Positions 496-59,879 of a DNA stretch of 64,000 nucleotides are shown here, in pieces. A program made the translations under genes and the position numbers. Positions within the stretch are counted from its first letter, which is position 1, and each line of letters begins with the position of its first letter. The stretch is from a virus (lineage: Duplodnaviria > Heunggongvirae > Uroviricota > Caudoviricetes), in the IMG/VR virus record IMGVR_UViG_2529292920_000018, positions 1 to 64,000 of that record. The stretch is one strand, 5' to 3'. The notes beneath the pieces are model-generated. The model did not search any database, was not told the origin of the DNA, and saw only the letters and a list, made by a program, of their open reading frames with translations.

Positions 496-501
496 TTATA
501 T

Positions 502-1111
502 TCAACTGGCTGATGCCAGTGGTATTTCCGGCAAGTTGATATCTGGTGCCATGTTTATATCCATTGCGTTCAGCGCGTCTATATAATCCAGCACGGCATT
601 AAGCCGGGTGGTTTCTGCCTGCGTCAACTTCCGCCCGGCCCGCAACTTCAACTGAATCAGACTTATGGAATCCATTGCCGCATCAGCCAGTGACTGGCGC
701 TTGGTTTCTGCCGCTTCTACTGCGGCACGATGTTGTACCTCAGTATCTGTCACCCATTTTTCACCATCCCATTTATCGTATGGTGTTAACGGGGCGATAG
801 TGGTTGTATTTTCGGGTAGTCACCCAGCGCCGTGATTTCTTCGGTGTTTCCCGTGTCAGTGCTATAGACGGTTTCACCACGATGGTCTGGCGCATACTCC
901 CATGAATTTAAATCCTCCGAACGGCGAATAGCATAGCCAGATTTATGTGCGCCTGGGGCATCTAAACAGGAATTAGCCGGAATACCAACACCCACAGCAA
1001 GATATTCAGTTGATTCGGAAATATATTCCCGTGTCTCACCATCATAGTTATAAACGACGATGTTTCCTGCCTGTACGGCATAAGGTCATCATTTAATATC
1101 GCGTTATTCAT
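502..1111 (-). pseudogene. Tail fibre assembly protein (TfaE-like), disrupted by two frameshifts
   Basis: Homology to the intact Tfa at 43090-43683 is split over three reading frames (ORFs 786-995 and 502-753 plus an 11-codon N-terminal stub overlapping the fibre stop). Confidence 0.55.
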
Positions 1112-25826: not shown

Positions 25827-25930
25827 ATCGCCCCACAGGAATGCGCTGTGAGCCGACCAAGGTTCAGTCAGTCTCGCGAGACCTGACCAGACTGCCATAT
25901 TTTTTAATAATTGTAAAAGGCTTACAGATT

Positions 25931-26695
25931 ATGAAAATGCAGACATTACCCATCGTGCCGTGGATTGGTGGCAAACGCCGCCTTGCAAAACACATTCTGC
26001 CGCTGTTTCCGGCGCATGAATGTTATGTGGAGCCGTTTTGTGGGGCAGCAGCGCTCTATTTTCTTAAGACACCCGGCAAGATCGAAGTCATCAATGATAT
26101 CAACGGTGAACTGGTGAATCTGTACCGGGTGGTAAAGCATCACCTGGAAGAATTTGTCCGCCAGTTCAAATGGGCGCTGGTCAGCCGTCAGATCTACAAA
26201 TGGCTGCAGATCACCCCGGAAGAAACACTGACGGATATCCAGCGTGCGGCACGGTTCTACTACCTTCAGAAGCAGGCGTTTGGCGGCAAGGTGGCAGAGC
26301 ACAGCTTCGGTACCTCCACCACATCCCCGCCACGCTTCAACCTGCTACGTATTGAAGAAGAACTGTCAGCGGCACACCTGCGGCTTTCCAGAACAGTCAT
26401 AGAACACATGGACTGGCAACAGTGCATTGAGCGTTATGATCGTCCGCACACGCTGTTCTACTGCGACCCACCGTACCTGGGTACGGAAGGCTATGGTGTG
26501 GATTTTCCTGAAGGGAACTACTCGCGGCTGGCAGAGCTGGCCCGGTGCATCAGAGGAAAAATGATAATTTCGGTGAACGACATCCCGCAGATGCGCGAGG
26601 TGTTCACTGGACTGAACATACAGACAGTGAATATCAACTACAGTCTGGCGGGTAAACCCACGCCGCGCCGTGAACTGCTAATCTGCAACTTCTGA
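25931..26695 (+). CDS. dam: DNA adenine methyltransferase (Dam family)
   Basis: N-terminal WIGGKRR and catalytic DPPY motifs. Confidence 0.8.
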   Translation: MKMQTLPIVPWIGGKRRLAKHILPLFPAHECYVEPFCGAAALYFLKTPGKIEVINDINGELVNLYRVVKHHLEEFVRQFKWALVSRQIYKWLQITPEETLTDIQRAARFYYLQKQAFGGKVAEHSFGTSTTSPPRFNLLRIEEELSAAHLRLSRTVIEHMDWQQCIERYDRPHTLFYCDPPYLGTEGYGVDFPEGNYSRLAELARCIRGKMIISVNDIPQMREVFTGLNIQTVNINYSLAGKPTPRRELLICNF

Positions 26696-29074: not shown

Positions 29075-30844
29075 ATGACCCCGGCACTGACTGAAAAACT
29101 GGTTGAAACAGCCCGCGCGGCACGTGACGCGGGGCATGGTAAACGCGGTGCAATATACGACGCTGCCTGTGCTGAACTTGGCATGTCCCGCGCCACTCTG
29201 CTGCGCAGGCTGAAGGAGGTATCTGTGACTGATAAACGCAAAAAACGCGCCGATGCCGGGCGCAGCGCCCTGACCCGCGACGAAGCCGCGCTGATATCTG
29301 CCACACTGCGTGAGGCCACCCGCAAGAACGGTAAGCGTCTCTATTCCATCGCAGATGCAGTGGAAACCCTGCGGGCTAACGGCTTTATCACCGCAGGCAG
29401 AACAGATGAAACCACCGGTGAGTTTTTCCCGTTGTCTGAAGATGCCATCAGCCGTGCTCTGCGTAACTATGGCCTGCACCCGGAACAACTGGATGCCCCT
29501 GCACCACATACCGAAGTGGCCAGTCTGCATCCCAATCATGTCTGGCAGATTGACGCCTCACTCTGCACGCTTTACTACCTGAGCAATGGACATAAAGGGC
29601 TGCAGGTGATGGACAGCGCGAAGTTCTACAAGAACAAGCCCGCTAACCTTGCCCGTATCGCCAGTGACCGCGTGTGGAGTTACGAGATTACCGACCATGC
29701 CAGCGGCTGGATTTACGTTGAGTATGTGACGGGCGCGGAATCAGGTGAGAACCTGTGTTCTGTGCTTATCAACGCCATGCAGGAGCGTGGCGGCGCAGAC
29801 GTGCTGCACGGCGTGCCGAAAATACTCTATCTCGACCCCGGCTCGGCAAACACCGCGGGTATGACGAAAAACATGTGCCGCTCACTGGGCATCGACCTGA
29901 TAGCGCACAAGCCGCATAACGCCCGCGCCACCGGACAGGTGGAAAAGGCGCGTGACATTATCGAACGCAAGCTGGAGCCGGGTCTGAAGTTCCGGCCGGT
30001 TCACAGTCTGGAAGAACTCAACGCGCTGGCCGCGAAATGGCGCAGCCACTTTAACGCCACGGCTGTTCACAGCCGCCACGGTAAAACCCGCACGGATATC
30101 TGGCTGAAGATTACTGCTGAGCAGCTGAAAAAAGCGCCTTCCGTTAAGGTATGTCGTGAACTGGCTGTGGCGGCACCAGAACTCCGCAAAGTCACGCCAA
30201 AACTTCGTGTCTCGTTCCGGGGCACTGAATTTGACGTATCAACGGTACCGGGCGTACTGGTTGGTGAAAAACTGATGATTACCCGTAACCCATGGCGCAG
30301 CGATGTGGCACAGGTGGTTCTGACTGGTGAGGACGGCCACGAGACGTTCTTCCTGGTCGAAGAGGTCAGAAAGAACGAGTTTGGCTTTGCTGAAGGCGCG
30401 GCGGTATTTGGCGAAAGTTACAAAGCCCTGCCGGAAACCCCGGCACAGATGGCGGCAAAAGAAACCGAAGCGCTGGTTACCGGTACAGACAACGCCGCAG
30501 ATGCAGCCGCCGCACGCAAGGCGAAGGCGCTGCCGTTCGGCGGGCGGCTTGACCCGTATAAACATATCGACGACACCACACTTCCGGCCTATATGCCGAA
30601 GCGTGGTCAGGCCTCTGACGTACGCGGGCCGCGCACTGAACAACGTCCCATGACTCATGTGGAGGCCGCGAAAGCCCTGCGCGATAAGTTCAGCACCGAC
30701 GGCCTTACCTGGACGCCGGAACATTACCGCCAGTTAACGGCACAGTACCCGGACGGCGTACCGGAAGCCGCACTGGATGAAGTCATGGCCACGCTGACCA
30801 CACCGGCCCGCAGCAGTGTTATCAGCATTGTTAACGGCAACTGA
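29075..30844 (+). CDS. DDE transposase (transposable-phage A protein)
   Basis: 589 aa; candidate DDE residues at HVWQIDAS, YLDPGSANT and ATGQVEK; followed by a MuB-like ATPase. Confidence 0.75.
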   Translation: MTPALTEKLVETARAARDAGHGKRGAIYDAACAELGMSRATLLRRLKEVSVTDKRKKRADAGRSALTRDEAALISATLREATRKNGKRLYSIADAVETLRANGFITAGRTDETTGEFFPLSEDAISRALRNYGLHPEQLDAPAPHTEVASLHPNHVWQIDASLCTLYYLSNGHKGLQVMDSAKFYKNKPANLARIASDRVWSYEITDHASGWIYVEYVTGAESGENLCSVLINAMQERGGADVLHGVPKILYLDPGSANTAGMTKNMCRSLGIDLIAHKPHNARATGQVEKARDIIERKLEPGLKFRPVHSLEELNALAAKWRSHFNATAVHSRHGKTRTDIWLKITAEQLKKAPSVKVCRELAVAAPELRKVTPKLRVSFRGTEFDVSTVPGVLVGEKLMITRNPWRSDVAQVVLTGEDGHETFFLVEEVRKNEFGFAEGAAVFGESYKALPETPAQMAAKETEALVTGTDNAADAAAARKAKALPFGGRLDPYKHIDDTTLPAYMPKRGQASDVRGPRTEQRPMTHVEAAKALRDKFSTDGLTWTPEHYRQLTAQYPDGVPEAALDEVMATLTTPARSSVISIVNGN

Positions 30845-30854
30845 GGAGGGAAAC

Positions 30855-32021
30855 ATGCTGGTACTGAAGCAGCAACTGAAAGAGGCCCGTATTCCACAGG
30901 CGGTGGTGGCGAGAGCTGTCGATGTTTCTGAGGCCACGCTGGCCCAGATTGTGAATCATAACGCGTGGCCCCGCACCAGCCCCGGAGAAGTGCGCCGGCG
31001 TCTTGCGTCCTGGCTGGAAAGTCAGGGGATTGATACAACGAAGAGTTTTGATGCTGTACAGGGCGCGGCCACGCCCCGTACAGCGGGTACCACAGATAAA
31101 ACGAGCCTCAGTGAGGAAGAGAATATGTTACTCAAAAAACAGGTGTTATTTCCAGCAACCAAAAAAGCGTTTGGTCTTTTCCGTGACCCGTTCGCCGACG
31201 AAGCCATGCAGGGTTCTGATGATGTGTTCACCACCCCGGATATTCGCTACGTGCGTGAGGCGTTGTACCAGACAGCCCGTCATGGTGGGTTTATGGCCGT
31301 CATCGGTGAGTCCGGTGCGGGTAAATCCACGCTGCGCCGCGACCTGACTGAACGTATCAACCGCGAGAATGCGCCGGTAATTGTTATCGAGCCATACATC
31401 ATCGCTATGGAAGACAACGATGTGAAAGGGAAAACCCTGAAGGCAGCAGCGATTGCCGAAGCCATTATCAGTACCATCGCACCACTGGAAAGCATCAGAC
31501 GCAGTCAGGACGCCCGCTTTCGCCAGTTGCATCGCGTCCTGAAAGACAGCAGCCAGGCGGGGTTCAGCCACGTTCTGGTGATTGAGGAGGCCCACAGTCT
31601 GCCCATTCCGACACTGAAACACCTCAAACGCTTTTTTGAGCTGGAGTCCGGTTTCAAAAAACTGCTGTCCATCGTGCTGATTGGCCAGCCGGAACTGGCG
31701 ACAAAACTGTCTGAACGCAATATGGAAGTCCGTGAAGTCGTTCAGCGCTGTGAGGTGGTCGAACTTCTGCCTCTGGACAATAACCTTGAAGAGTTTCTGA
31801 CGTTCAAACTGCAACGGGCCGGTAAACAACTGACGGACATTATGGACGCCAGCGCAGTGGATGCCATACGTGCCCGCCTGAGCAATCCGGGAAGTCATCG
31901 TAAAAATATGGTCAGCCTGCTGTATCCGCTGGCCGTCAGTAACCTGGTAATAGCCGCCATGAATCTGGCCGCTGAAATCGGGGTTCCACAGGTCAACGCT
32001 GACGTTGTCAAAGGGGTTTAA
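30855..32021 (+). CDS. Transposition ATPase (MuB-like, AAA+)
   Basis: Walker A GESGAGKST; start at MLVLKQQ with GGAGGG upstream. Confidence 0.75.
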   Translation: MLVLKQQLKEARIPQAVVARAVDVSEATLAQIVNHNAWPRTSPGEVRRRLASWLESQGIDTTKSFDAVQGAATPRTAGTTDKTSLSEEENMLLKKQVLFPATKKAFGLFRDPFADEAMQGSDDVFTTPDIRYVREALYQTARHGGFMAVIGESGAGKSTLRRDLTERINRENAPVIVIEPYIIAMEDNDVKGKTLKAAAIAEAIISTIAPLESIRRSQDARFRQLHRVLKDSSQAGFSHVLVIEEAHSLPIPTLKHLKRFFELESGFKKLLSIVLIGQPELATKLSERNMEVREVVQRCEVVELLPLDNNLEEFLTFKLQRAGKQLTDIMDASAVDAIRARLSNPGSHRKNMVSLLYPLAVSNLVIAAMNLAAEIGVPQVNADVVKGV

Positions 32022-35052: not shown

Positions 35053-35502
35053 ATGCAGAAAAAACGCCTGATACAGCTTATCCATATTGCCCGTAATGAA
35101 CTGGGTATGGATGAAGACACCTACCGCCAGATGTTACAGGGGCTGACCGGTAAAGCCTCAACCAAAGGAATGGATACCACACAACTAAACTGCGTGCTGG
35201 AATCCATGAAAAAGAAAGGCTTTCGCGTTAAACCAGCCAGAAAAGCCAGCTCCGGTTTACCGCTGGATAACCATCCGCAGTCCAGGAAAATTCGTGCGCT
35301 ATGGCTTGAAATGGCTGCTGCCGGCATTGTTCGTGACCGTTCAGAAAATGCATTAGCGAGGTGGATCAAGCGGGAAACGGGCATCAGCGCCCTGCGCTGG
35401 CTCAGTACTGAACAGGCAAGCAGTGTTATTGAGAAACTGAAGAAGTGGCAGCGCAGAGCTGCGGGAGTCAAACATGAGCGACCTGAATCAGTTTCGAAGT
35501 AA
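35053..35502 (+). CDS. gemA: GemA-like protein (Mu gp16-like)
   Basis: 149 aa; immediately upstream of the Mor-like gene as in Mu. Confidence 0.6.
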   Translation: MQKKRLIQLIHIARNELGMDEDTYRQMLQGLTGKASTKGMDTTQLNCVLESMKKKGFRVKPARKASSGLPLDNHPQSRKIRALWLEMAAAGIVRDRSENALARWIKRETGISALRWLSTEQASSVIEKLKKWQRRAAGVKHERPESVSK

Positions 35503-35863
35503 GGGGCCGGAACTCCTGGTGGAACTGGCACAGCATACCTCTGAGACCGTTCGCGAGATTATTGATATTGAGCCCGAAGTTGCCGACCAGATTGGTCAGG
35601 CCGTCGCGAACCGAATGATGCAGGTCTGGGGCGGGCAAAACGTTTATTTCCCGATGGGCATGGTATGGAAGGTCAGTCAGCGCGACCGGGAAATCTTCAG
35701 GGAGTTTAACGGACGCAACCACCACGAACTGGCCCGCAAATTTGGTGTTTCGCTTCAGTGGGTCTACAGCGTGGTTAAGCGGGTAAGAAAAGAAGAACTG
35801 GATCGGATGCAGGGCAAGCTATTTGCTGATGAACCCGATGCAGATACGGAGAAAAAAGAGTAA
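35474..35863 (+). CDS. mor: Mor/C-family transcription activator
   Basis: 129 aa; C-terminal HTH region REIFREFNGRNHHELARKFGVSLQWVYSVVKRV. Confidence 0.7.
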   Translation: MSDLNQFRSKGPELLVELAQHTSETVREIIDIEPEVADQIGQAVANRMMQVWGGQNVYFPMGMVWKVSQRDREIFREFNGRNHHELARKFGVSLQWVYSVVKRVRKEELDRMQGKLFADEPDADTEKKE

Positions 35864-36697
<834 letters not shown>

Positions 36698-36698
<1 letters not shown>

Positions 36699-40646: not shown

Positions 40647-41837
40647 TTAATTGCTGTTAACCGAGGTGACCAGATTTGCCAGGTATTTATCAGTAATACG
40701 CTGGCGCAGGGTCAGGTTTTCAAGAGGAGGCACCGGTGTATAGTCGTAGTCGATATACAGTTTTCCGGCCTTGAGGGTTTCCGCATCGTTGGATTCTTCG
40801 CTGAACCAGCAGGTCGCATCCACGATATAGCCGTTTGTTTTCAGCTCACGGAATTTGGCATTGATGCCGTCAACGATGTCGCGAATCAGCGTTGCGGTGA
40901 TGGGCTTGTCCACCGCCCACATGTGCGCCTCAGCCATCGTGTCGGCCAGCACCTGCGCGGTGCGGGTGTAGTTTTCAAAGAGGAACAGCGGGTCATCAGA
41001 GCAGGTACGGTTACCCCAGAATCGGAAACCGTCGCGGCGAATCAGCGTAGTGACACCTGACTCGTTAAGCAGGTCAGCATCGGTGCCGGACTCCTGCAAA
41101 TCCCAGAATACAGATGCGCTGATGCCGGTAACACCGTTTACCCCGACGTTGGACAGCGTTTTATGCCAGCCCTGCTCCTGGTCGATTTTAGCGCGCAGAC
41201 CCAGCGCACGGGCGGTGGCATACGCGGTGGCGGTGGTACTGGTGACCGTATCCCATGCGAGGAAATCCGGCCAGATGACCATCAGCTCACGCTGGCTGAA
41301 ATTCTGGCGGTAGGCTTTCACCTCGGAAATGGTCTTACAGCCCCATGCGCTGATATATCCGAAAGCACGCAGCTTCTGACAGACTGATGCCAGTGCAACA
41401 GCCACCTCTTTGGTATCCAGTCCCGGCACGCCGAGAATACGCGGTTTAACACCGGTTACCGACTCCGCCGCCAGCAGGGCTTTCAGTCCGGTGTACTGAC
41501 CGTTTTCGTCGGTGGTGCCGATGATATTGGAAACGGTCTGCGCGAGTTTCGTTTCCTCGTCGTCGCCGGTGCCGTCTTCCACACGTACGACAACGGTGAC
41601 CGGTTTTGACTGGTCGGCGATGGCCTGCAACGATGCCGCCAGCGTGCCTTTTTTACCGGCCTTTGCAATTGCACTCTGCACATTGGTAATCAGCACCGGT
41701 TTATTGAGGGGGAAGGTTTCCGCATCCGCATCGCTGGCCGTGCAGACCATGCCGACAATGGCAGTGGATACGGTGGAAATGACGCGGGTGCCGTCGTTAA
41801 TCTCCAGCACCTGCACGCCGTGATGATAGTCACTCAT
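40647..41837 (-). CDS. FI: Tail sheath protein (FI-like)
   Basis: 396 aa; P2 order. Confidence 0.85.
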   Translation of the reverse strand: MSDYHHGVQVLEINDGTRVISTVSTAIVGMVCTASDADAETFPLNKPVLITNVQSAIAKAGKKGTLAASLQAIADQSKPVTVVVRVEDGTGDDEETKLAQTVSNIIGTTDENGQYTGLKALLAAESVTGVKPRILGVPGLDTKEVAVALASVCQKLRAFGYISAWGCKTISEVKAYRQNFSQRELMVIWPDFLAWDTVTSTTATAYATARALGLRAKIDQEQGWHKTLSNVGVNGVTGISASVFWDLQESGTDADLLNESGVTTLIRRDGFRFWGNRTCSDDPLFLFENYTRTAQVLADTMAEAHMWAVDKPITATLIRDIVDGINAKFRELKTNGYIVDATCWFSEESNDAETLKAGKLYIDYDYTPVPPLENLTLRQRITDKYLANLVTSVNSN

Positions 41838-41896
41838 CCGTTTAACTCCGTGGTTAATGGGTGAGTGGTATTTTCAGTTGTGCCGGAGATGTCAGG

Positions 41897-42496
41897 CTAT
41901 TTGTCCCGGTTGGCTAAGGGATGACACAATTTATTCTTTGTCGCTGATGAGGGAAATTTTTTATAGAGCGTGGACAGGCCAATATCAAAAATCAGTGCCA
42001 CGCGTTGACGTGACTCCCCTGCAGCCAGCAAACGCCCGGCCTGCTCCCACTCACTCGCGGTGAGTTTCGGTCGTCTGCCACCAATACGACCTTTGGCTCT
42101 GGCCGCTTCCAGTCCGGCGCGTGTCCGCTCGACAATGAGTTCTCGCTCCATTTCAGCCAGGGCACCCATCACATGAAAGAAAAAACGCCCCATCGGTGTG
42201 CTGGTATCAATAGCATCCGTCAGGCTGCGAAAATTAACGCCGCGTTCGCGCAGTTCCTCAACCAGAATGACCAGATGCCGCATACTACGCCCCAGCCGGT
42301 CCAGCTTCCAGACCACCAGTGTATCCCCCTCCGATAATGTCCTGAGCAGTTTTTTCAGTCCCGGTCGGTCGGACTTCGTGCCGCTGATTTTATCCTCAAA
42401 AATCAGCTCACATCCTGCGCACTCCAGCGCGTTACGCTGCAATTCCGTATTCTGGTCATTTGTTGACACGCGTACATAGCCAATAAGCATGAGCAT
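41897..42496 (-). CDS. Serine DNA invertase (Gin/Pin/Hin/Cin family)
   Basis: N-terminal catalytic motif IGYVRVSTNDQ and C-terminal HTH; adjacent to the invertible fibre segment. Confidence 0.9.
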   Translation of the reverse strand: MLMLIGYVRVSTNDQNTELQRNALECAGCELIFEDKISGTKSDRPGLKKLLRTLSEGDTLVVWKLDRLGRSMRHLVILVEELRERGVNFRSLTDAIDTSTPMGRFFFHVMGALAEMERELIVERTRAGLEAARAKGRIGGRRPKLTASEWEQAGRLLAAGESRQRVALIFDIGLSTLYKKFPSSATKNKLCHPLANRDK

Positions 42497-42547
42497 CCCC
42501 CTGAATAAAAACCGGAGATGATGCCAGTTAGCCGTAATCTCTGCATT

Positions 42548-42573
42548 TTCTTAAACGTTGGTTTGGGAGAAGG
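42548..42573. other. Din-family invertase crossover site, left boundary of P2-type invertible segment
   Basis: ttcttaaacgttggtttgggagaagg; core is the inverted copy of the site at 44441-44468. Confidence 0.55.
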
Positions 42574-43090
42574 TGCTCCAGCTATTGGCGTTCCGTTCTT
42601 CTGGCCGTCCGCAGCAATGCCAGATACCGTAATCGATAGCTGGTCCAGCATGGTGTTTTTGAAGTTCAACGGCGCGAAATTCTCTGCCACTGATTACCCT
42701 GTGCTGGCGAAAGTGTTTCCGGCGCTGGCATTACCTGACGCACGCGGTGATTTCATTCGTATCTGGGATGACGGGCGCGGGATTGATGTCGGACGTACCC
42801 TACTTTCAGGGCAATCACACACAATTATGGATCATGCGCACAATATGGAATTGTGGACGGGGGACGGGCTTGCCGCAGGAAGTGCACGGGAAGGAGTAAA
42901 CCCAGGAATACTGGCTACATATGGTGACGGGGGAATAGTTAAAACGGACGAACCCGGTCTTAGGGTGCCTTCCTCACTACGAGCTCTTAGCTCTCGTAGT
43001 GTTAAACGTTATGGTGAAATTAGTGGAAATGTAGGTACAGAAACCCGTCCACGAAATATTGCATTTAACTTTCTGGTGAGGGCTAAATAA
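42553..43090 (+). CDS. Alternative tail-fibre C-terminal segment, silent in this orientation
   Basis: Begins at the LGLGE crossover; contains DDGRGID and ends ETRPRNIAFNFLVRAK, like the Mu-like fibre tips. Confidence 0.65.
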
Positions 43091-43683
43091 TGAAACCTGT
43101 TTTTGATGAAAATGGGCTGGCTACAGTACCGGGTAATATGCGTTGTTTTTATTATGATGCTGAAACATCTGAGTATACGGGCTGGTCTGATGAATATATT
43201 AATACTGGTGTAAGTATGCCCGACTGTTCCACTGGTATTGACCCTGGCGAATACATTCCGGGGAAAGTGGCAGTATTTACGGGTAAGGGATGGAGCCATG
43301 AAGAAGACCACCGCAATGAGACTGTTTACTCAATCGAAAATGGCGCAGCTGTTACAGTGGATTATATCGGTGCCATCAAAGACGGTTATGTCACGCTTTC
43401 ACCGTTAACGCCATACGATAAATGGGATGGTGAGAAATGGGTGACGGATACCGAGGCACAGCATAGCGCCGCACTAGACGCGGCAGAAGTAAAGCGCCAG
43501 TCGCTGATTGATGCTGCAATGGCTTCCATCAGTCTGATTCAACTGAAATTACAGGCCGGGCGGAAGCTGACGCAGCCAGAAAACACCCGACTTAACGCTG
43601 TGCTGGATTATATTGACGCGGTGACGGCAACAGATACCAGCACCGCACCGGATGTCATCTGGCCTGAACTGCCGGAGGCGTAG
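43090..43683 (+). CDS. Tail fibre assembly protein (TfaE-like), partner of the alternative fibre tip
   Basis: 197 aa; C-terminus TSTAPDVIWPELP. Confidence 0.8.
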   Translation: MKPVFDENGLATVPGNMRCFYYDAETSEYTGWSDEYINTGVSMPDCSTGIDPGEYIPGKVAVFTGKGWSHEEDHRNETVYSIENGAAVTVDYIGAIKDGYVTLSPLTPYDKWDGEKWVTDTEAQHSAALDAAEVKRQSLIDAAMASISLIQLKLQAGRKLTQPENTRLNAVLDYIDAVTATDTSTAPDVIWPELPEA

Positions 43684-44095
43684 GCCATTCAATATCTGGC
43701 GCACCGGAAGTATCGACCAGTTCCAGTGCGTCCAGATAATCCAGCCACAAATTATATTGCACCAGTTCCTCACCTTTCAGGCGACCAATCGCCGCTTTAC
43801 CAGGCCATTGCTTACTGTTTATGTATTCGTTGACCTGATTAATCAATTGCTGCTTTTTCAGTTCGGCTGCGGCAATTTGTTCCTCATGAGTTGGCGGTGG
43901 AATATCAATCCATGCAGGCATTCCGTCGATGACACCTCTGTATTTTCCTTCTGGTGCTTCCTTCATAAATTCGGCAGCAACAGTGTCGTCAATTTCGATT
44001 CCATCATCGGGCCATTCGCCGGATTCCTGATAAGCGATTTTAAGCTCCACAGGGAAAAACGCATTTTTATCGGCACTGAAAATATATTTCTGCAT
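43655..44095 (-). CDS. G: Tail fibre assembly protein (gpG-like), partner of the expressed fibre tip
   Basis: 146 aa; C-terminus TSGAPDIEWPTPP; immediately after the H-like gene. Confidence 0.75.
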   Translation of the reverse strand: MQKYIFSADKNAFFPVELKIAYQESGEWPDDGIEIDDTVAAEFMKEAPEGKYRGVIDGMPAWIDIPPPTHEEQIAAAELKKQQLINQVNEYINSKQWPGKAAIGRLKGEELVQYNLWLDYLDALELVDTSGAPDIEWPTPPAVQAR

Positions 44096-44097
44096 TT

Positions 44098-45282
44098 CTA
44101 CCGTCCTATCGAAATATAACTGAATCTGTATTGCTGTGAGATATCACTGGTTGCCACACGCCACGCTGAATTACTGATATGTTCAAAATTTACAGACAAA
44201 ACCTGCGGGGCAGGAATCGACGGGTCTGACTGAACGGCATCAGACATAACACTGACTGAAACCATCGGCTGATTAGGGAATGGTATAGGGAAGTGTCCAC
44301 TGATAAAGCGGGTCGTGTTTCCTGCAAAAGTGCCAAACTGAACAATATATCCACCTGGTAGCCTGAACCATCCCGAACCAGAAGCGAATGCTCCCATATC
44401 CGGTATCTGATTATCTCCTGTGCCCACATTCCGTTTTGCCGCTTCTCCCAAACCAAGGTATGCGAGAAGACCGGCAACATCCTTTCCACTCAAATGAGTC
44501 AGCGTATTGTCCAGCGGTTGTTTACCTGCCAGCGCATTGTTAATGGTAGTGCTGAATTTCGGGTCATTGTTAATGGCCGCGGCAATTTCTTTCAGTGTGT
44601 CCAGCGTGGCTGGCGCGCCGTTAATCAGAGCGGTAATAGCAGCCTGAACAAACTCAGTGGTCGCAATCCGCGTGGTGTTATTTCCTGCGGCAGGCGTCGG
44701 CGCTTTTGGTTCTCCGGTAAATGTCGGATTATGTTTCTGTGCATACTGGGTATGAGGATCCTGTGCGGCAATGTGGTTTCTCATCTGGTCATCCACATAC
44801 AGCTTTAATTCCAGGACTTTATCATCCACGTATTTACGGGTCGCCAGTACCACCGACGGGTCGATTTTCAGCGTGATGGCTTCGGTATTCGTGACAACCA
44901 GAATCATGCGGATAGTCTGGGTACGACCACTGCCTTCCTGCAACTGCGGTTTGTACGTTTCCGGGCAGTTCGCCACCGCAATGAGTACGCCTTCATCATC
45001 ATAAAGCCCAATCTCACGGATCCAGAATCCGCCCTCGTTCTCAGGGATGATTTGCTCCGCAATAATCTGGCTCTGGTTGTTCGGGTCAACACTCAGAAGA
45101 TTCAGCGGCGCGATGCGTTTCTGGTTAATCAGTTTTGTCTGTGCCGGGTCTGGTGTCGGCAAGACACCATTCGCATCACCAACGGCCATTTGCGTCAGAT
45201 TCAGCTTACTGCCGAGCATCGTCGCGTTAGCCAGCCGTGCTGCGCCCTGATTAGTCAGAATGGCGTAGTATTTCACTGTCAT
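44098..45282 (-). CDS. H: Tail fibre protein (gpH-like) with invertible C-terminus
   Basis: 394 aa; conserved H-like N-terminus; crossover site at codons LAYLGLGE. Confidence 0.85.
   Translation of the reverse strand: MTVKYYAILTNQGAARLANATMLGSKLNLTQMAVGDANGVLPTPDPAQTKLINQKRIAPLNLLSVDPNNQSQIIAEQIIPENEGGFWIREIGLYDDEGVLIAVANCPETYKPQLQEGSGRTQTIRMILVVTNTEAITLKIDPSVVLATRKYVDDKVLELKLYVDDQMRNHIAAQDPHTQYAQKHNPTFTGEPKAPTPAAGNNTTRIATTEFVQAAITALINGAPATLDTLKEIAAAINNDPKFSTTINNALAGKQPLDNTLTHLSGKDVAGLLAYLGLGEAAKRNVGTGDNQIPDMGAFASGSGWFRLPGGYIVQFGTFAGNTTRFISGHFPIPFPNQPMVSVSVMSDAVQSDPSIPAPQVLSVNFEHISNSAWRVATSDISQQYRFSYISIGR
44441..44468. other. Din-family invertase crossover site, right boundary of P2-type invertible segment
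   Basis: gcttctcccaaaccaaggtatgcgagaa; reverse complement shares core ttggtttgggagaag with site 42548-42573. Confidence 0.55.
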
Positions 45283-46795: not shown

Positions 46796-47143
46796 TCAAC
46801 TCACAGGGATGATTAACGAAAGTAGCTGGCCGGTGTCGTTGTGCTGACCGGTTAACGTGACCGTCATTCGCCCGTCAAAACTGCGCGCCGTGGTGACGGA
46901 TGACAGGGTGACGCGGGGTTCCCATTTCAGCACTGCCATGTAACAGGCGACCTTAATCTGCAACTCAAGCGCCGGAGTCTGCGGCTGGTCAATCATTGAC
47001 GCCAGCAACGAGCCGTAATCACGACGCATCACCCGTGAGCCGACCGGTGTGCGCAGGATATCGCCGATACTCTGGCTGATATGCTCAAGGTCAGTGACCG
47101 TCAGGCCATCACTGCGATTCATTCCGAGATAACGCGCTGTCAT
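46796..47143 (-). CDS. W: Baseplate protein gpW-like
   Basis: 115 aa; P2 order. Confidence 0.8.
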   Translation of the reverse strand: MTARYLGMNRSDGLTVTDLEHISQSIGDILRTPVGSRVMRRDYGSLLASMIDQPQTPALELQIKVACYMAVLKWEPRVTLSSVTTARSFDGRMTVTLTGQHNDTGQLLSLIIPVS

Positions 47144-47775
47144 AAAGGACTCCCGGTTGTGCCGCCGCTGTCGCCGGGGTGTTTGTGGGTATGCAGTACC
47201 TTACCGTTTGATGAGAGTTCACCGCCGGTGTGTTCAATGTTGCCGCGCATCGTCCCGCCCTTCTGCACTTCCAGCGTGCCGGTAGTCAGTTTGTTAGTGC
47301 AGACCACTTCCGGTGTGTCCAGGGTGACACGGGTTGACGCTTTCACCATGACCACCGGTACCGTGGCAGTAACAGAATCAGAAGCCGTCACGCTGGCCGT
47401 TTTAATTCCGCTTACCGTGAGTGCACTGGTTTCGGGTTCATACTCAATCACCGCCCCGTCAGGGAAACGGATATGCAGGGCATCCGCCGACGCAGACGGC
47501 GCGCGGTTATCGCCGGAATAAATCCCCGGCAGAACGAACGCCGTGTCGAGTTCACCGCCCACGGCCAGAATCAGCACCTGTTCCCCCACGGAAGGTGCCC
47601 ACCATGTGCGCGAACGTCCGGCGCGATGGGTCAGCCACTGAAGCCAGTCGGTGCACATGCCGCCGGTCTGCACACGGCAGCGACCGGCGTTAAGGTCGGT
47701 TTCGACGATAATGCCGGTGCGGATCATGTTGCGCAGTGCGCGCGCGAGTTCCTGAATATTTGCGAGAGTGTTCAT
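47140..47775 (-). CDS. V: Baseplate spike gpV-like
   Basis: 211 aa; P2 order. Confidence 0.8.
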   Translation of the reverse strand: MNTLANIQELARALRNMIRTGIIVETDLNAGRCRVQTGGMCTDWLQWLTHRAGRSRTWWAPSVGEQVLILAVGGELDTAFVLPGIYSGDNRAPSASADALHIRFPDGAVIEYEPETSALTVSGIKTASVTASDSVTATVPVVMVKASTRVTLDTPEVVCTNKLTTGTLEVQKGGTMRGNIEHTGGELSSNGKVLHTHKHPGDSGGTTGSPL

Positions 47776-54215: not shown

Positions 54216-55988
54216 ATGACCATCACCACAGACACCACTCTTTTACACGACCCGCGTCGTCAGGCGGCGCTGCTGTACTGGCAGGGATTTTCCGTGCCGC
54301 AGATTGCCGCCATGTTGCAGATGAAACGCCCGACGGTGCAGAGCTGGAAACAGCGCGACGGCTGGGACAGCGTTGCCCCCATCAGCCGTGTCGAAATGAG
54401 TCTGGAAGCGCGGCTGACCCAGCTCATCATCAAACCGCAGAAAACCGGCGGTGACTTCAAGGAAATTGACCTGCTCGGACGCCAGATTGAACGACTGGCA
54501 CGGGTCAACCGTTACAGTCAGACCGGCAACGAGGCAGACCTTAATCCGAACGTCGCTAACCGCAACAAAGGCGGGCGTCGCAAACCGAAAAAGAATTTTT
54601 TCAGTGACGAGGCCATCGAAAAGCTGGAGCAGATTTTCTTTGAGCAGTCTTTCGACTATCAGTTGCACTGGTATCGCGCAGGGCTTGAGCACCGCATCCG
54701 CGATATCCTGAAATCCCGCCAGATTGGCGCGACGTTTTATTTTTCCCGCGAGGCGCTGCTGCGCGCCCTGAAAACCGGTCATAACCAGATTTTTCTGTCG
54801 GCCAGTAAAACGCAGGCGTATGTGTTCCGCGAATACATCATCGCCTTTGCCCGGCTGGTTGACGTTGACCTGACCGGTGACCCGATTGTCCTGGGCAATA
54901 ACGGCGCAAAACTGATTTTTCTCGGCACCAACTCCAACACCGCGCAGAGCCATAACGGCGACCTGTACGTCGACGAGATTTTCTGGATCCCGAATTTTCA
55001 GGTACTGCGTAAGGTGGCATCAGGTATGGCCTCACAGAGTCACCTGCGCTCGACCTATTTCTCCACCCCGTCCACACTGGCGCACGACGCCTACCCGTTC
55101 TGGTCGGGTGAACTGTTTAACCGGGGACGCGCCAGCGCCGCCGAACGCGTGGAAATCGACGTCAGTCATAACGCCCTTGCCGGTGGGCTTCTCTGTGCGG
55201 ACGGCCAGTGGCGGCAGATTGTCACCATTGAGGACGCCCTGAAAGGCGGCTGCACGCTGTTCGACATTGAGCAGCTCAAACGTGAAAACAGCGCCGACGA
55301 TTTTAAAAACCTGTTCATGTGTGAATTTGTTGACGACAAGGCGTCGGTGTTCCCGTTCGAGGAGCTGCAACGCTGCATGGTCGACACGCTGGAAGAATGG
55401 GAAGACTATGCGCCGTTTGCCACGAATCCGTTCGGCTCCCGCCCGGTCTGGATTGGTTACGACCCGTCACACCGTGGCGACAGTGCCGGATGCGTGGTGC
55501 TGGCACCGCCGGTGGTGGCCGGTGGCAAATTCAGAATACTTGAGCGTCACCAGTGGAAAGGCATGGACTTTGCCACCCAGGCAGAATCCATCCGCAAACT
55601 CACCGAAAAATACAACGTCGAATACATCGGAATTGATGCCACCGGCCTCGGTGTCGGCGTGTTCCAGCTCGTTCGCTCGTTCTATCCCGCCGCGCGCGAT
55701 ATCCGCTACACGCCGGAAATGAAAACCGCAATGGTGCTCAAGGCAAAAGACGTTATTCGCCGTGGCTGTCTGGAATATGACGTCAGCGCCACCGACATCA
55801 CCAGCTCGTTCATGGCTATCCGCAAGACCATGACCAGCAGCGGACGCAGCGCCACCTATGAGGCCAGCCGCAGCGAGGAAGCCAGCCACGCCGACCTCGC
55901 CTGGGCGACCATGCACGCCCTGTTAAATGAGCCACTCACCGCCGGTATCAGCACTCCGCTGACATCCACCATTCTGGAGTTTTACTGA
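54216..55988 (+). CDS. P: Terminase large (ATPase) subunit gpP-like
   Basis: Start at MTITTDTTLL; divergent from O as in P2. Confidence 0.85.
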   Translation: MTITTDTTLLHDPRRQAALLYWQGFSVPQIAAMLQMKRPTVQSWKQRDGWDSVAPISRVEMSLEARLTQLIIKPQKTGGDFKEIDLLGRQIERLARVNRYSQTGNEADLNPNVANRNKGGRRKPKKNFFSDEAIEKLEQIFFEQSFDYQLHWYRAGLEHRIRDILKSRQIGATFYFSREALLRALKTGHNQIFLSASKTQAYVFREYIIAFARLVDVDLTGDPIVLGNNGAKLIFLGTNSNTAQSHNGDLYVDEIFWIPNFQVLRKVASGMASQSHLRSTYFSTPSTLAHDAYPFWSGELFNRGRASAAERVEIDVSHNALAGGLLCADGQWRQIVTIEDALKGGCTLFDIEQLKRENSADDFKNLFMCEFVDDKASVFPFEELQRCMVDTLEEWEDYAPFATNPFGSRPVWIGYDPSHRGDSAGCVVLAPPVVAGGKFRILERHQWKGMDFATQAESIRKLTEKYNVEYIGIDATGLGVGVFQLVRSFYPAARDIRYTPEMKTAMVLKAKDVIRRGCLEYDVSATDITSSFMAIRKTMTSSGRSATYEASRSEEASHADLAWATMHALLNEPLTAGISTPLTSTILEFY

Positions 55989-57022
55989 TGAGTAAGAAAA
56001 AAGGGAAAACACCGCAGCCAGCGGTGAAAACAATGACTGCCAGCGCCCCGAAAATGGAGGCATTCACCTTTGGTGAGCCGGTGCCGGTACTCGACCGCCG
56101 TGATATTCTGGATTACGTCGAGTGCATCAGTAACGGCAGATGGTATGAGCCACCGGTCAGCTTTACCGGTCTGGCAAAAAGCCTGCGTGCTGCCGTGCAT
56201 CACAGCTCACCGATTTACGTCAAACGTAATATTCTGGCCTCAACGTTTATCCCGCACCCGTGGCTTTCCCAGCAGGATTTCAGCCGCTTTGTGCTGGATT
56301 TTCTGGTGTTCGGTAATGCGTTTCTGGAAAAGCGCTACAGCACTACCGGTAAGGTCATCAGACTGGAAACCTCACCTGCAAAATATACCCGCCGTGGCGT
56401 GGAGGAGGATGTTTACTGGTGGGTGCCATCCTTCAACGAGCCGACACCTTTCGCGCCCGGCTCCGTGTTTCACCTGCTGGAGCCGGATATCAATCAGGAG
56501 CTGTACGGCCTGCCGGAATATCTCAGCGCCCTTAACTCTGCCTGGCTGAATGAGTCAGCCACACTGTTCCGCCGCAAGTATTACGAAAACGGCGCGCATG
56601 CCGGATATATCATGTACGTCACCGATGCCGTGCAGGATCGCAACGATATCGAAATGCTTCGCGAAAACATGGTGAAGTCGAAAGGCCGCAACAACTTTAA
56701 AAATCTGTTTCTCTATGCCCCACAGGGAAAAGCCGACGGCATTAAAATTATCCCGCTCAGTGAAGTGGCGACGAAGGACGATTTTTTTAATATCAAAAAA
56801 GCCAGTGCCGCAGACCTGCTGGACGCGCACCGCATCCCCTTTCAGTTGATGGGCGGCAAGCCGGAGAACGTCGGGTCGCTGGGTGATATTGAGAAAGTGG
56901 CAAAGGTCTTTGTCCGCAATGAGCTTATCCCGTTACAGGACAGGATCCGCGAGATAAACGGCTGGCTCGGTCAGGAGGTCATCCGCTTTAAAAACTACTC
57001 ACTGGACACTGACAACGGCTGA
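55988..57022 (+). CDS. Q: Portal protein gpQ-like
   Basis: 344 aa; downstream of P, next to cos. Confidence 0.85.
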   Translation: MSKKKGKTPQPAVKTMTASAPKMEAFTFGEPVPVLDRRDILDYVECISNGRWYEPPVSFTGLAKSLRAAVHHSSPIYVKRNILASTFIPHPWLSQQDFSRFVLDFLVFGNAFLEKRYSTTGKVIRLETSPAKYTRRGVEEDVYWWVPSFNEPTPFAPGSVFHLLEPDINQELYGLPEYLSALNSAWLNESATLFRRKYYENGAHAGYIMYVTDAVQDRNDIEMLRENMVKSKGRNNFKNLFLYAPQGKADGIKIIPLSEVATKDDFFNIKKASAADLLDAHRIPFQLMGGKPENVGSLGDIEKVAKVFVRNELIPLQDRIREINGWLGQEVIRFKNYSLDTDNG

Positions 57023-57370: not shown

Positions 57371-58153
57371 TCATTTTAGAAGCCCTATTATAGCTGCAAT
57401 CATACTTCCTACGCCGCCGACTGCTGCGAAAAAAGTAGCCCAAAACATTTTCTTCTGAGTACTCAAATTCTCTCTGTACCGCACCTCATCTTTATTGAAT
57501 GTAGATATTGTGTTCAGTGCCTTTCCTGTTGGCCTAAATCCACTACTTGTTTCAACAAGATCTCCATTCTGAACAAGAGAATTCAGGCATAAACGAAGCT
57601 CTTTACGCATCCTGTTTTTATCGTCATGGTATACCCATAAACTACCAGCGACTTCGGTCATTATTGAAAACTCACTAAACACAGTTTGAGCATCCCATTC
57701 ACGATACATTCTTATAATCGTTGAGAGAACAAACATCACATCAGTTATTTCTTTTTTTTGCTGTCGATAAATATATTTTTCACGACTAAATTTTATATTT
57801 TCATAATTAGACCTTACTCTAAAGAACAACTCCCTTAAAAATGTTAAATCATTTAAAGAGTTAAATCGCAACTCATGCGCACGGTAGTAGTAAACACCAA
57901 AAAAAGAATCAGGCGTAACCTCAGAAATATCCAAGCATGAACTTATATGAAATCTACGCTCCTCATCATCCCATTTAAAAGCCTTTATCTTCCCATCAAC
58001 CAAACAGTCAAAGAGGTATTCTGTATCATTTTTATCTTTAATATATACAGAGTACATATCATACTTAATCGCGTTTTCATATAACAAACTAATACGGCCA
58101 TCATCTGGCGTTCTTTTCTTATCAAACTTCTTAAGTTGGTTTATAACTTTCAT
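57371..58153 (-). CDS. Hypothetical tail-anchored membrane protein (cargo gene B at tin/old hotspot)
   Basis: 260 aa; single C-terminal TM helix MFWATFFAAVGGVGSMIAAIIGLL; AT-rich codon usage; no recognised family. Confidence 0.5.
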   Translation of the reverse strand: MKVINQLKKFDKKRTPDDGRISLLYENAIKYDMYSVYIKDKNDTEYLFDCLVDGKIKAFKWDDEERRFHISSCLDISEVTPDSFFGVYYYRAHELRFNSLNDLTFLRELFFRVRSNYENIKFSREKYIYRQQKKEITDVMFVLSTIIRMYREWDAQTVFSEFSIMTEVAGSLWVYHDDKNRMRKELRLCLNSLVQNGDLVETSSGFRPTGKALNTISTFNKDEVRYRENLSTQKKMFWATFFAAVGGVGSMIAAIIGLLK

Positions 58154-58262: not shown

Positions 58263-58994
58263 TCAATTATCTATGATTGATATCACCTTACCAGTTTTTA
58301 TATCAACACGCGCAGCAATCGTCTGTTTCACCACTCCGCCATAAGCATTTTTTCCGCGAAACGTGGTTTTCACAATGGCATGAGGGTCTTTATTCAAAAC
58401 CAGATGATATACCGTTGACACATGTTTATAAGATGAATCATCGTTCATATTATCTTTAATTAGTTTTTCCAATGGACGATAAGAACCATCCCAACCACTA
58501 AAATTACTCTGAAATGTATCAAGATTGATTTTATTGTTTAGTGAATTCGGGTCATTTTCATAATCATTAAAGCACCACCCAAGAACATCACCGAGTTTCA
58601 ACTCATCATCTTTGGTAAATGTATATTCACTCATGCAGGCATAAAACGCATCTGACGCGGTGGCTGGAACTTCCTTAAAATCAATGTAACTATTCACAAT
58701 ATCGTGTCGTGTTTTCTTTGACTCGTTCCGATATTCCTTGAGTGTTTTTTTACCATATTTGAATGTTTTTTGGACTTTATGTTCTGCAACGGTTGATGTT
58801 TCAGTTTTATCAACTGGCTGGCTTTTTTCTGTTGGATAGAGTATTGAACCAATTATGCTCAATACAAAACCTCCTCCGAGATAAACCGCACTTGCACGTT
58901 TGCGGTTTGGCATTCGCACCAGTGATGGCTTGATTAACCCGATGAAGAAAGCAACGAAAAAAGCGAGTGATAGAAAAGCGATTATAGTATCCAT
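58263..58994 (-). CDS. Hypothetical membrane protein with two N-terminal TM helices (cargo gene A at tin/old hotspot)
   Basis: Start at MDTIIAFLSL with AAGGA 7 nt upstream; about 170-aa C-terminal soluble domain; AT-rich; no recognised family. Confidence 0.5.
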   Translation of the reverse strand: MDTIIAFLSLAFFVAFFIGLIKPSLVRMPNRKRASAVYLGGGFVLSIIGSILYPTEKSQPVDKTETSTVAEHKVQKTFKYGKKTLKEYRNESKKTRHDIVNSYIDFKEVPATASDAFYACMSEYTFTKDDELKLGDVLGWCFNDYENDPNSLNNKINLDTFQSNFSGWDGSYRPLEKLIKDNMNDDSSYKHVSTVYHLVLNKDPHAIVKTTFRGKNAYGGVVKQTIAARVDIKTGKVISIIDN

Positions 58995-59217
58995 AGCTAT
59001 CCTTTTTGCATCATCCACATAAAAAATCGACCTCATGTTAGCAACAGGATGCTTACTTTTGAATATTTGTAAGTTGTTAGCTCTCCAACCTAACTCCTTT
59101 CAACCGTCAAAAACCGGCACCAACGCAGTAAAAATATGTCTGTCAACTAACGCCTCGCTACGCTCGTTGTTCAACCCCGCCAGCCCTGAAAACAAGTTTC
59201 ACGACTGGCGGCGTTCT

Positions 59218-59436: not shown

Positions 59437-59879
59437 CCGTTTTGCTTTGCACGCTCCACCTGTTCATCTGAATAGTTCCATATCCCATCCGCAGCAACCA
59501 CTGCCCCGCCAGACAGCCCCGTCTCTGGTTCATACATAACAGCAAGGCCGAGCTGATGCATAATTTCATGATTAATTCTGAATACCAGACCACGTTCACT
59601 AAGTTCTTTCCAGTTCACAATCTTATATGCGCCCGTATTAAGCAGCTCAATACTTAGCAAGACATAATCTTCCAGCCAGTCTGACAGGTCAGTAACATCT
59701 GTTATCCGGGCTTCAACCTTTCGCCCCGTAAACACACCCTGCACCCATTCATGCAAAATCAACGTGTCCCCGCGCTCATAATTACGGTCATTTTTCCGAA
59801 ACTCTGCGCGTTTTTTTCCTTCCAGTACAAGGTCGAAATATTTTGCGTGCAGCTTTACCTCGTGAATTTTTGCCATCAT
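59424..59879 (-). CDS. ASCH-domain (DUF3850-like) protein
   Basis: N-terminal KIHEVKLHAKYFDLVLEGKKRAEFRKNDR pattern; start overlaps the A stop. Confidence 0.5.
   Translation of the reverse strand: MMAKIHEVKLHAKYFDLVLEGKKRAEFRKNDRNYERGDTLILHEWVQGVFTGRKVEARITDVTDLSDWLEDYVLLSIELLNTGAYKIVNWKELSERGLVFRINHEIMHQLGLAVMYEPETGLSGGAVVAADGIWNYSDEQVERAKQNGWLG

What the first reader, a model, noticed from the sequence alone, without database searches (positions are those of the whole stretch)
41897..44468. Invertase-driven tail-fibre switch occupying the P2 Z/fun hotspot
Where P2 carries Z/fun (between G and FI), this prophage has a serine invertase (41897-42496) and an invertible segment of about 1.9 kb bounded by inverted sites at 42548-42573 and 44441-44468. 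It holds an alternative fibre tip (42553-43090) with its own Tfa (43090-43683) opposite the expressed tip and G-like Tfa (43655-44095). The silent tip ends ETRPRNIAFNFLVRAK and carries DDGRGID, like the Mu-like prophage fibre tips, suggesting receptor-binding modules are exchanged between the two resident prophages.
Basis: partly seen in the sequence, partly recalled or inferred. Interest (0 to 1): 0.5.

Follow-up and report, generated by a model that had tools for sequence, protein, structure and literature searches.

The report
Invertible tail-fibre switch in P2-like prophage
A P2-like prophage of E. coli carries a Gin-type DNA invertase that can flip a 1.9-kb segment to give its tail fibre one of two receptor-binding tips; the feature is real and well formed, but it is a common, already described arrangement.

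Summary
The window has a 197-aa serine invertase (41897-42490, minus strand), 77-80% identical to Mu Gin. Two 26-bp inverted crossover sites (42546-42571 and 44443-44468) share the perfect 15-mer TTGGTTTGGGAGAAG. Between them lie two convergent tip-plus-chaperone modules. Inverting the segment in silico gives an in-frame 452-aa fibre in place of the present 394-aa one.

Both orientations occur in complete E. coli genomes: 15 in the window's orientation and 19 flipped. Flipped genomes annotate a 452-aa fibre that is 98% identical to the prediction. Their junctions swap inside the shared 15-mer. The module sits where P2 has fun(Z), ending at the pF activator site.

The arrangement is ordinary. 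The invertase-sheath junction is in 581 of 5,426 complete E. coli genomes. Phage pro483 has the same annotated layout. Published work reports invertases in this hotspot and measured inversion in P2-like prophages.

The suggested exchange between the two resident prophages is not supported here, because their tips are only 38-42% identical. Across E. coli genomes, however, these modules do occur on both kinds of phage backbone. Separately, a BcepMu-like transposable prophage interrupts gene D of the P2-like prophage, so it is probably defective.

The parts
41897..42490 (-). Gin-family serine DNA invertase, 197 aa from Met3. The ORF as listed starts 2 codons earlier, at 42496.
   Evidence: Pfam Resolvase (E 2e-52) and HTH_7 (E 1e-12). 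It matches Mu Gin structures 3UJ3 and 4M6F at E 1e-94 over residues 3-184. It is 77% identical to Gin and 100% identical to KL53 WP_000905100.1. Ser9 and the YVRVS and DRLGRS motifs are intact, and Met114 is wild type.
42406..42468 (.). Putative Fis-dependent recombinational enhancer (sis-like) inside the 5' end of the invertase gene
   Evidence: Two matches to the 15-bp Fis consensus lie at gene nt 23-37 and 71-85, with centres 48 bp apart. Mu gin has matches at the same positions. The proximal centre is about 97 bp from the left site core. The Hin enhancer is 65 bp with a Fis site at each end, about 100 bp from hixL (PMC3798978). This is a consensus match and inference, not shown.
42546..42571 (.). 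Left crossover site, on the invertase side: TTTTCTTAAACG TT GGTTTGGGAGAA
   Evidence: The site is conserved in related prophages. Its outer half stays with the invertase flank in flipped genomes.
42572..43090 (+). Silent alternative fibre tip (172 aa, collar-type, ending ETRPRNIAFNFLVRAK). It has no N-terminal fibre part in this orientation.
   Evidence: Weak Pfam Collar match. It is 38-42% identical to the collar-type tips of the other prophage. After in-silico inversion it fuses in frame to H residues 1-280. The fused 452-aa form is annotated in strains IAL7250 and AMSCJX04.
43090..43683 (+). Tail fibre assembly chaperone (Tfa, 197 aa) belonging to the silent tip
   Evidence: Pfam Caudo_TAP, E 8e-26. 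Its start overlaps the stop of the silent tip.
43655..44095 (-). Tail fibre assembly chaperone (146 aa) of the expressed tip, in the position of P2 G
   Evidence: Pfam Caudo_TAP, E 9e-34. It converges on the other Tfa and overlaps it by 29 bp. BLASTP finds no similarity to P2 G.
44098..44442 (-). Expressed variable tip of fibre gene H (last 114 aa, gp53-like C-terminal domain)
   Evidence: Pfam Gp53-like_C, residues 307-394, E 9e-8. It is unrelated to the silent tip. In flipped genomes it is left as an orphan 399-nt ORF next to the invertase.
44443..44468 (.). Right crossover site, inside H: TTCTCCCAAACC AA GGTATGCGAGAA. It encodes ...YLGLGE.
44469..45282 (-). Constant N-terminal part of tail fibre gene H (about 272-280 aa, shared by both fibre forms)
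   Evidence: Pfam Phage_tail_fib N-terminal domain, E 1e-62. The two fibre forms share a 280-aa prefix.
41906..41934 (-). pF late-promoter activator (Ogr) binding site of the sheath operon. It marks the right-hand limit of the hotspot cargo and overlaps the invertase 3' end.
   Evidence: The alignment with the annotated P2 site 17555-17583 shows TTGTG and TTAGCCAACCGG retained at the same spacing. P2 homology starts at window 41917.

Best explanation
This is a Mu G-segment-type tail-fibre host-range switch in a P2-like (Peduovirus) prophage of E. coli. It lies between the fibre chaperone gene and the pF promoter, where P2 has fun(Z).

A Gin-family serine invertase binds two 26-bp sites in inverted orientation. 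One site is just upstream of its own gene and the other is inside fibre gene H. With Fis bound to an enhancer inside the invertase gene, the enzyme cuts both sites at the central TT/AA dinucleotide, rotates the ends and rejoins them. This inverts 1,897 bp.

In the present orientation, H (394 aa) ends in a gp53-like tip and is followed by a 146-aa chaperone. After inversion, the same 280-aa N-terminal part is fused in frame to a collar-type tip (452 aa in all) and is followed by a 197-aa chaperone. A lysogen population would therefore yield particles with either of two receptor specificities.

Shown here: the parts, the preserved reading frame, an intact invertase, and both orientations in nature with the predicted junctions.

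Inferred: Fis and enhancer dependence, the different receptor specificities, and activity in this particular strain.
For: - Invertase: Resolvase and HTH_7 domains, 77-80% identical to Gin, catalytic Ser9 and other catalytic motifs intact, and identical to a widely held RefSeq protein.
- Sites: 26-bp sites of hix/gix type with identical cores. The shared 15-mer occurs 4 times against 0.10 expected, always at fibre junctions.
- Frame: in-silico inversion gives an in-frame 452-aa H'.
- Both orientations: the flipped 3.5-kb arrangement is colinear at 97.9% in strains IAL7250 and AMSCJX04. At 80% coverage or more, 19 genomes are flipped and 15 are in the window's orientation.
- Predicted product: the flipped genomes annotate a 1,359-nt H that is 98% identical to the prediction.
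- Same lineage, both states: AMSCJX04 (flipped) has the same protein accessions for I, J and the 197-aa Tfa as CE0021a and KOr024 (not flipped).
- Junctions: the alignment places the swap inside TTGGTTTGGGAGAAG, with the outer half-sites staying with their flanks.
- Enhancer: Fis-consensus pair 48 bp apart, about 97 bp from the left site, at the same positions as in Mu gin.
- Literature: invertases and inverted neighbouring genes are reported in the P2 Z/fun hotspot (10.1101/2024.10.15.618418). Inversion phase variation was measured in P2-like prophages of EPEC (PMC4272514).
Against: - There are no read-level data for this strain, so both orientations have not been shown to coexist here.
- The enhancer rests on a degenerate consensus, about 1 chance match per 128 nt.
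- The receptors of the two tips are unknown.
- A transposable prophage interrupts gene D of this prophage. The switch may therefore have no consequence for infectious particles in this host.
Confidence: 0.9

Rival explanations
1. The switch is structurally intact but idle. Because the prophage is defective (gene D is split by a BcepMu-like prophage), flipping may still occur but changes nothing that selection sees. The element is then a decaying remnant.
For: Homology to the KL53 D gene stops at window 36028, which is nt 671 of 1,164. Next to that point lie a Mor gene and an rve transposase with an AAA ATPase, belonging to a Bcepmuvirus-like prophage.
Against: The invertase, both sites, both tips and both chaperones are intact. 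The region is 99.5% identical to an uninterrupted prophage in KL53. The insertion therefore looks recent and no decay is visible. This rival concerns consequence, not mechanism, and is compatible with the main explanation.
Confidence: 0.3
2. The switch has been taken over by the host. Inversion produces a fibre protein that blocks adsorption of other phages, as reported for PinQ and StfE2 in E. coli K-12.
For: There is a precedent. An invertase of one cryptic prophage flips the segment of another, and the chimeric Stf blocks T2 adsorption (PMC12529663). The prophage here is defective, and two compatible switches coexist.
Against: Nothing in the sequence points to this. H lies in an Ogr-dependent late operon and has no evident independent promoter; the promoter scan found no more sites than chance. 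Near-identical copies sit in intact prophages and in phages such as pro483.
Confidence: 0.05
3. The inverted repeat is a chance or purely historical feature. The segment does not invert, and the two orientations in databases reflect separate ancient lineages.
For: None, beyond the lack of read-level data for this strain.
Against: The shared 15-mer is far above chance. The junction structure is exactly as site-specific exchange predicts. Prophages that share identical I, J and Tfa proteins differ in orientation. Inversion has been measured in P2-like prophages.
Confidence: 0.02

Closest known systems
Phage Mu G segment with Gin
   Same: The invertase is 77-80% identical to Gin. The constant fibre part lies outside the segment. 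Two convergent tip-plus-chaperone modules lie inside it. The invertase sits just outside the segment on the same strand as the fibre gene. The sites are 26 bp and the Fis-consensus pair is at the same gene positions.
   Different: The segment is 1.9 kb, against about 3 kb in Mu. The core dinucleotide is TT/AA as in hix, not the gix core. BLASTP finds no similarity of the tips to Mu S or S', and the only chaperone match to Mu U/U' is weak (30% over 73 aa to U'). The host phage is P2-like, not transposable.
Escherichia phage pro483 (NC_028943) and other Peduovirus records that carry an invertase
   Same: The gene order is the same: I, H, Tfa, Tfa', silent tip, DNA invertase, sheath. The DNA is 95.7% identical over the shared parts, and the invertase is annotated as such.
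   Different: Only 61% of the 3.5-kb query is covered at megablast level. Which parts of the query are not covered was not examined.
Invertible fibre loci of P2-like prophages in EPEC E2348/69 (Goldberg et al. 2014, PMC4272514)
   Same: These are P2-like prophages in which an invertase and inverted repeats switch the fibre C-terminus. Coexistence of the variants was shown by sequencing.
   Different: One EPEC locus has three repeats and four variants. The locus here has two sites and two variants. Sequence identity to the EPEC loci was not tested.
e14 P segment with Pin, P1 C segment with Cin, and Salmonella Fels-2 Fin (the last three from general knowledge)
   Same: They belong to the same invertase subfamily and use the same logic of fusing a constant fibre part to alternative tips. 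Their invertases are known to substitute for one another. A case of one prophage's invertase acting on another prophage's segment is reported in PMC12529663.
   Different: They sit in different phage backbones. They were not compared by sequence here, except for Mu.

Membership tests
Hin/Gin/Cin/Pin DNA invertases (serine recombinase subfamily) | N-terminal resolvase-type catalytic domain with the serine nucleophile (Ser9 in Gin) and conserved Arg and Asp residues | tested here: met
   PF00239, E 2e-52. YVRVSTNDQ and KLDRLGRS are aligned to Gin.
Hin/Gin/Cin/Pin DNA invertases (serine recombinase subfamily) | C-terminal helix-turn-helix DNA-binding domain and overall length of about 190 aa | tested here: met
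   PF02796 HTH_7, E 1e-12, residues 140-183. The protein is 197 aa.
Hin/Gin/Cin/Pin DNA invertases (serine recombinase subfamily) | Close sequence relationship to a characterised invertase rather than to resolvases | tested here: met
   Gin scores E 1e-94, against E 4e-33 for gamma-delta resolvase. Identity to Gin is 77%.
Hin/Gin/Cin/Pin DNA invertases (serine recombinase subfamily) | Two 26-bp recombination sites in inverted orientation with identical 2-bp cores | tested here: met
   Sites at 42546-42571 and 44443-44468, with cores TT and AA.
Hin/Gin/Cin/Pin DNA invertases (serine recombinase subfamily) | Fis-bound enhancer in cis: about 65 bp, a Fis site at each end, about 100 bp from one site | tested here: inconclusive
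   A consensus pair lies at gene nt 23-37 and 71-85, at the same positions as in Mu gin and 97 bp from the left site. The architecture is described in PMC3798978. The consensus is degenerate and binding was not tested.
Hin/Gin/Cin/Pin DNA invertases (serine recombinase subfamily) | The segment does invert | tested here: met
   Met at population level. Both orientations occur in complete genomes, 15 against 19, with the predicted junctions and in prophages that share identical neighbouring proteins. It cannot be tested for this strain without reads.
Mu G-segment-type tail-fibre switch | The crossover lies inside the fibre gene, so one constant N-terminal part is fused in frame to either of two tips | tested here: met
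   The two forms are 394 aa and 452 aa and share a 280-aa prefix. The 452-aa form is annotated in flipped genomes.
Mu G-segment-type tail-fibre switch | Each tip is followed by its own assembly chaperone inside the segment | tested here: met
   Two convergent Caudo_TAP genes.
Mu G-segment-type tail-fibre switch | The two tips confer different host ranges | not testable with these tools
   The tips are unrelated in sequence (gp53-like against collar-type), which fits different receptors. This is inference only.
Cargo of the P2 Z/fun hotspot | Located between the G-equivalent gene and the pF promoter of the FI operon in a P2-like backbone | tested here: met
   P2 layout. Homology of 97.8% runs from window 41917 (P2 17572) through FI and FII. 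The pF activator site is retained. The invertase-FI junction occurs in 581 of 5,426 E. coli genomes.

The most novel reading that the evidence does not exclude
The window holds two fibre switches with interchangeable sites. Four copies of the same core 15-mer lie within 44.5 kb: two in the P2-like prophage and two in the BcepMu-like prophage that has inserted into P2 gene D. Either invertase could therefore drive both switches.

Recombination between sites of different prophages (2-27 with 44443-44468, or 1561-1586 with 42546-42571) would invert about 41-44 kb. It would also create in-frame chimeric fibres that swap tips between the two phages. Both chimeras translate in frame in silico. Similar chimeric junctions occur in other E. 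coli genomes.

This would make nested prophages a place where host-range modules are shuffled by site-specific recombination, not by homologous recombination.
Probability: 0.1. Interest if true: 0.45.

Novelty: already known. Interest (0 to 1): 0.15.

Why it matters
The value is mainly for annotation. The silent tip and its chaperone should be read as the alternative 3' end of H, not as orphan 'phage tail protein' genes. Host-range prediction for this prophage family must consider both fibre forms.

The locus also shows that the P2 Z/fun hotspot, now searched for defence genes, often carries a host-range switch instead; about 11% of complete E. coli genomes have the invertase-sheath junction.

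The one point of wider interest is the coexistence of two compatible switches in nested prophages. This could be used to test whether invertases move fibre tips between unrelated phages.

Tried and rejected
1. My first in-silico inversion used the wrong left site. The site pattern first matched at window 9, in the other prophage. The result was discarded for the main question. It did reveal that the site at 2-27 is compatible and gives an in-frame 435-aa chimera.

2. I first read the megablast limits (query 754-2660) as cassette breakpoints lying exactly at the crossover cores. For phage 500465-2 this was wrong. Its flanks are homologous too and align on the other strand because the segment is flipped. 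For vB_EcoM-683R1, the breakpoint at the crossover site holds on the fibre side. Its invertase side is homologous.

3. BLASTP of the tips and chaperones against the P2 H C-terminus, P2 G and Mu S, S', U and U' gave nothing at E 1e-3, except a weak match of one Tfa to Mu U'. 'G-like' therefore holds for position and Pfam family only.

4. A pairwise distance matrix of related loci could not be run, because L006 and L008-L012 were not available to scripts. I replaced it with shared RefSeq protein accessions and a junction alignment.

5. The promoter and terminator scan of 41800-44600 found no more sites than shuffled sequence.

6. PADLOC and Pfam scans of the two ORFs in the old/tin hotspot gave no hit.

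7. The paper on Fin of Fels-2 (PMC1347348) is not held, so that comparison rests on general knowledge.
Full report
**What is there**

The region lies in the tail gene cluster of a P2-like prophage, read on the minus strand. The order is V (47140-47775), W, J, I, H (44098-45282, 394 aa), a chaperone (43655-44095), then two plus-strand ORFs (42518/42572-43090 and 43090-43683). These are followed by a recombinase gene (41897-42496, minus strand), sheath FI (40647-41837), tube FII, E, tape measure T, U and D.

Pfam assigns the following:
- the recombinase: Resolvase plus HTH_7;
- both small genes next to the tips: Caudo_TAP;
- the H N-terminus: Phage_tail_fib;
- the H C-terminus: Gp53-like_C;
- the plus-strand tip ORF: a weak Collar match.

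The repeat finder reports one long inverted repeat, 42546-42572 against 44442-44468. Read as 26-bp sites, these are TTTTCTTAAACG-TT-GGTTTGGGAGAA and TTCTCCCAAACC-AA-GGTATGCGAGAA. This is the hix/gix type of layout (Mu gix sites for comparison). The shared 15-mer TTGGTTTGGGAGAAG, allowing up to 2 mismatches, occurs four times in the window against 0.10 expected. All four copies lie at tail-fibre junctions. The other two (14-28 and 1560-1574) belong to a second switch at the left edge of the window.

**The invertase**

It aligns to Mu Gin (PDB 3UJ3 and 4M6F) at E 1e-94 over residues 3-184. By comparison, gamma-delta resolvase scores E 4e-33. From Met3 it is 197 aa, the length annotated in RefSeq for strain KL53, and it is 100% identical to that protein. 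It is 98-99% identical to the invertases of related prophages in either orientation, and 77% identical to Gin. The serine nucleophile and the DRLGRS motif are present. Position 114 is the wild-type Met, which fits a Fis-dependent enzyme.

Two matches to the 15-bp Fis consensus lie at gene nt 23-37 and 71-85, with centres 48 bp apart. Mu gin has matches at the same positions. The proximal centre is about 97 bp from the left site. This fits the published enhancer: 65 bp, a Fis site at each end, about 100 bp from hixL (PMC3798978). The consensus is degenerate, so I treat the enhancer as inferred.

**Does it switch?**

Inverting the DNA between the two core dinucleotides in silico keeps the frame. 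The first 280 residues of H, ending in LGLGE, become fused to the collar-type tip. The result is a 452-aa protein followed by the 197-aa chaperone.

I then searched 5,426 complete E. coli genomes with the 3.5-kb region as it stands and with the in-silico flipped version.
- The window's arrangement is colinear in 15 genomes at 80% coverage or more; the best is KL53 at 99.5%.
- The flipped arrangement is colinear in 19 genomes. Five reach 100% coverage at 97.7-97.9% identity.
- Flipped genomes annotate a 1,359-nt H (452 aa) that is 98% identical to my prediction. They also carry an orphan 'gp53-like' ORF next to the invertase.
- AMSCJX04 (flipped) carries the same RefSeq protein accessions for I, J and the 197-aa chaperone as CE0021a and KOr024 (not flipped). 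One prophage lineage therefore occurs in both states.
- In a junction alignment, each outer half-site stays with its flank. The exchange falls inside the shared TTGGTTTGGGAGAAG, as site-specific inversion predicts.

Read-level evidence for this particular strain cannot be obtained with the tools at hand.

**Position relative to P2**

P2 has H, G, fun(Z) on the opposite strand, then the pF activator site, pF and FI. Homology to P2 (97.8%) runs from window 41917, which is P2 17572, through FI and FII. The activator site is retained: TTGTG and TTAGCCAACCGG at the same spacing. It overlaps the last codons of the invertase.

**How ordinary is it?**

- The 500-nt junction of invertase 3' end, pF and FI 5' end is present at 80% coverage or more in 581 of 5,426 complete E. 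coli genomes.
- Phage pro483 (NC_028943) has the same gene order with an annotated DNA invertase.
- A survey of phage hotspots states that a DNA invertase is often seen in the Z/fun hotspot of P2-like phages, together with inversion of adjacent genes and swapping of fibre and chaperone genes (10.1101/2024.10.15.618418).
- Coexisting orientations have been measured by sequencing in P2-like prophages of EPEC E2348/69. One of them has three repeats and four variants (PMC4272514).

The kind of element, its location and its behaviour are therefore already described.

**The suggestion of exchange between the two resident prophages**

The silent P2-like tip is 38% and 42% identical in protein to the two tips of the other prophage. 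At DNA level the tips share only about 50 nt. The C-terminal part of the chaperone is closer, at 74% aa and 81% nt. The expressed gp53-like tip is unrelated to all of them. This is shared family membership, not recent exchange in this genome.

Across E. coli genomes, exchange is evident.
- The same cassette, about 95% identical, is joined to an unrelated fibre N-terminus in vB_EcoM-683R1. Homology there begins at the crossover site.
- A junction of the P2 H constant part with a tip of the BcepMu-like prophage's type is colinear at about 90% identity in 59 genomes.
- A junction of the BcepMu-type fibre constant part with the start of the P2-type collar tip is found at 96.6% in three genomes.

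Both chimeras are in frame in silico. The four sites in the window would allow such events. An invertase of one prophage flipping another prophage's segment has been reported (PMC12529663). Nothing shows that this has happened here.

**Context that changes the biological meaning**

The other prophage is not Mu. It carries an rve-type transposase, an AAA ATPase and a Mor activator on the plus strand, and its late genes are on the minus strand. It is 98.7% identical to phage PhiKM, classified as a Bcepmuvirus. It is inserted in gene D of the P2-like prophage: homology to the KL53 D gene stops at window 36028, which is nt 671 of 1,164. The P2-like prophage is therefore probably unable to build tails on its own. 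The switch may still flip, but it may have no effect on infectious particles in this host.

**Verdict**

The exchange between the resident prophages is not supported. The feature is a well-formed member of a known and common class. I rate it low for interest. One modestly interesting untested possibility remains: cross-talk or recombination between the two compatible switches of the nested prophages.

Noticed in passing
window 35994-36698, breakpoint about 36027/36028: Gene D of the P2-like prophage is cut short, at 234 aa instead of 387. Homology to the D gene of strain KL53 stops at window 36028. The adjacent DNA belongs to a transposable prophage whose Mor gene is at 35474-35863. The P2-like prophage is thus interrupted in an essential tail gene. 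The rest of D and ogr must lie left of the window.
   Followed up: partly
window 1-36027: This is a BcepMu-like (Bcepmuvirus) transposable prophage, 98.7% identical to phage PhiKM. It has an rve transposase (29075-30844), an AAA ATPase (30816-32021) and a Dam-type methyltransferase (25841-26695). Its late genes are on the opposite strand to the early genes.
   Followed up: partly
window 1-1586: A second fibre switch is cut by the window edge. Its crossover sites are at 2-27 and 1561-1586, with a silent collar-type tip at 28-495 (plus strand) and the expressed tip at 1111-1560 (minus strand). Its invertase must lie left of the window. The sites share the core 15-mer with the P2-like switch.
   Followed up: partly
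window 502-1110, minus strand: The only chaperone gene inside that second segment has no intact full-length ORF. A Tfa-like N-terminal part and the 83-aa C-terminal ORF (502-753) lie in different frames. This suggests a frameshift mutation or an assembly indel. The segment also holds only one chaperone for two tips.
   Followed up: partly
window 57371-58153 and 58263-59036, minus strand: Two ORFs of 260 and 257 aa lie between the portal gene (55988-57022) and replication gene A (59876-62203). This is the P2 old/tin hotspot, known for defence genes. Neither ORF has a Pfam or PADLOC match.
   Followed up: partly
window 41897-41934: The last 12 or so codons of the invertase overlap the Ogr activator site of the pF late promoter. 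The C-terminal tail beyond the Gin-homologous part (…SSATKNKLCHPLANRDK) is encoded by the junction with the P2 backbone. It is conserved in related prophages.
   Followed up: partly
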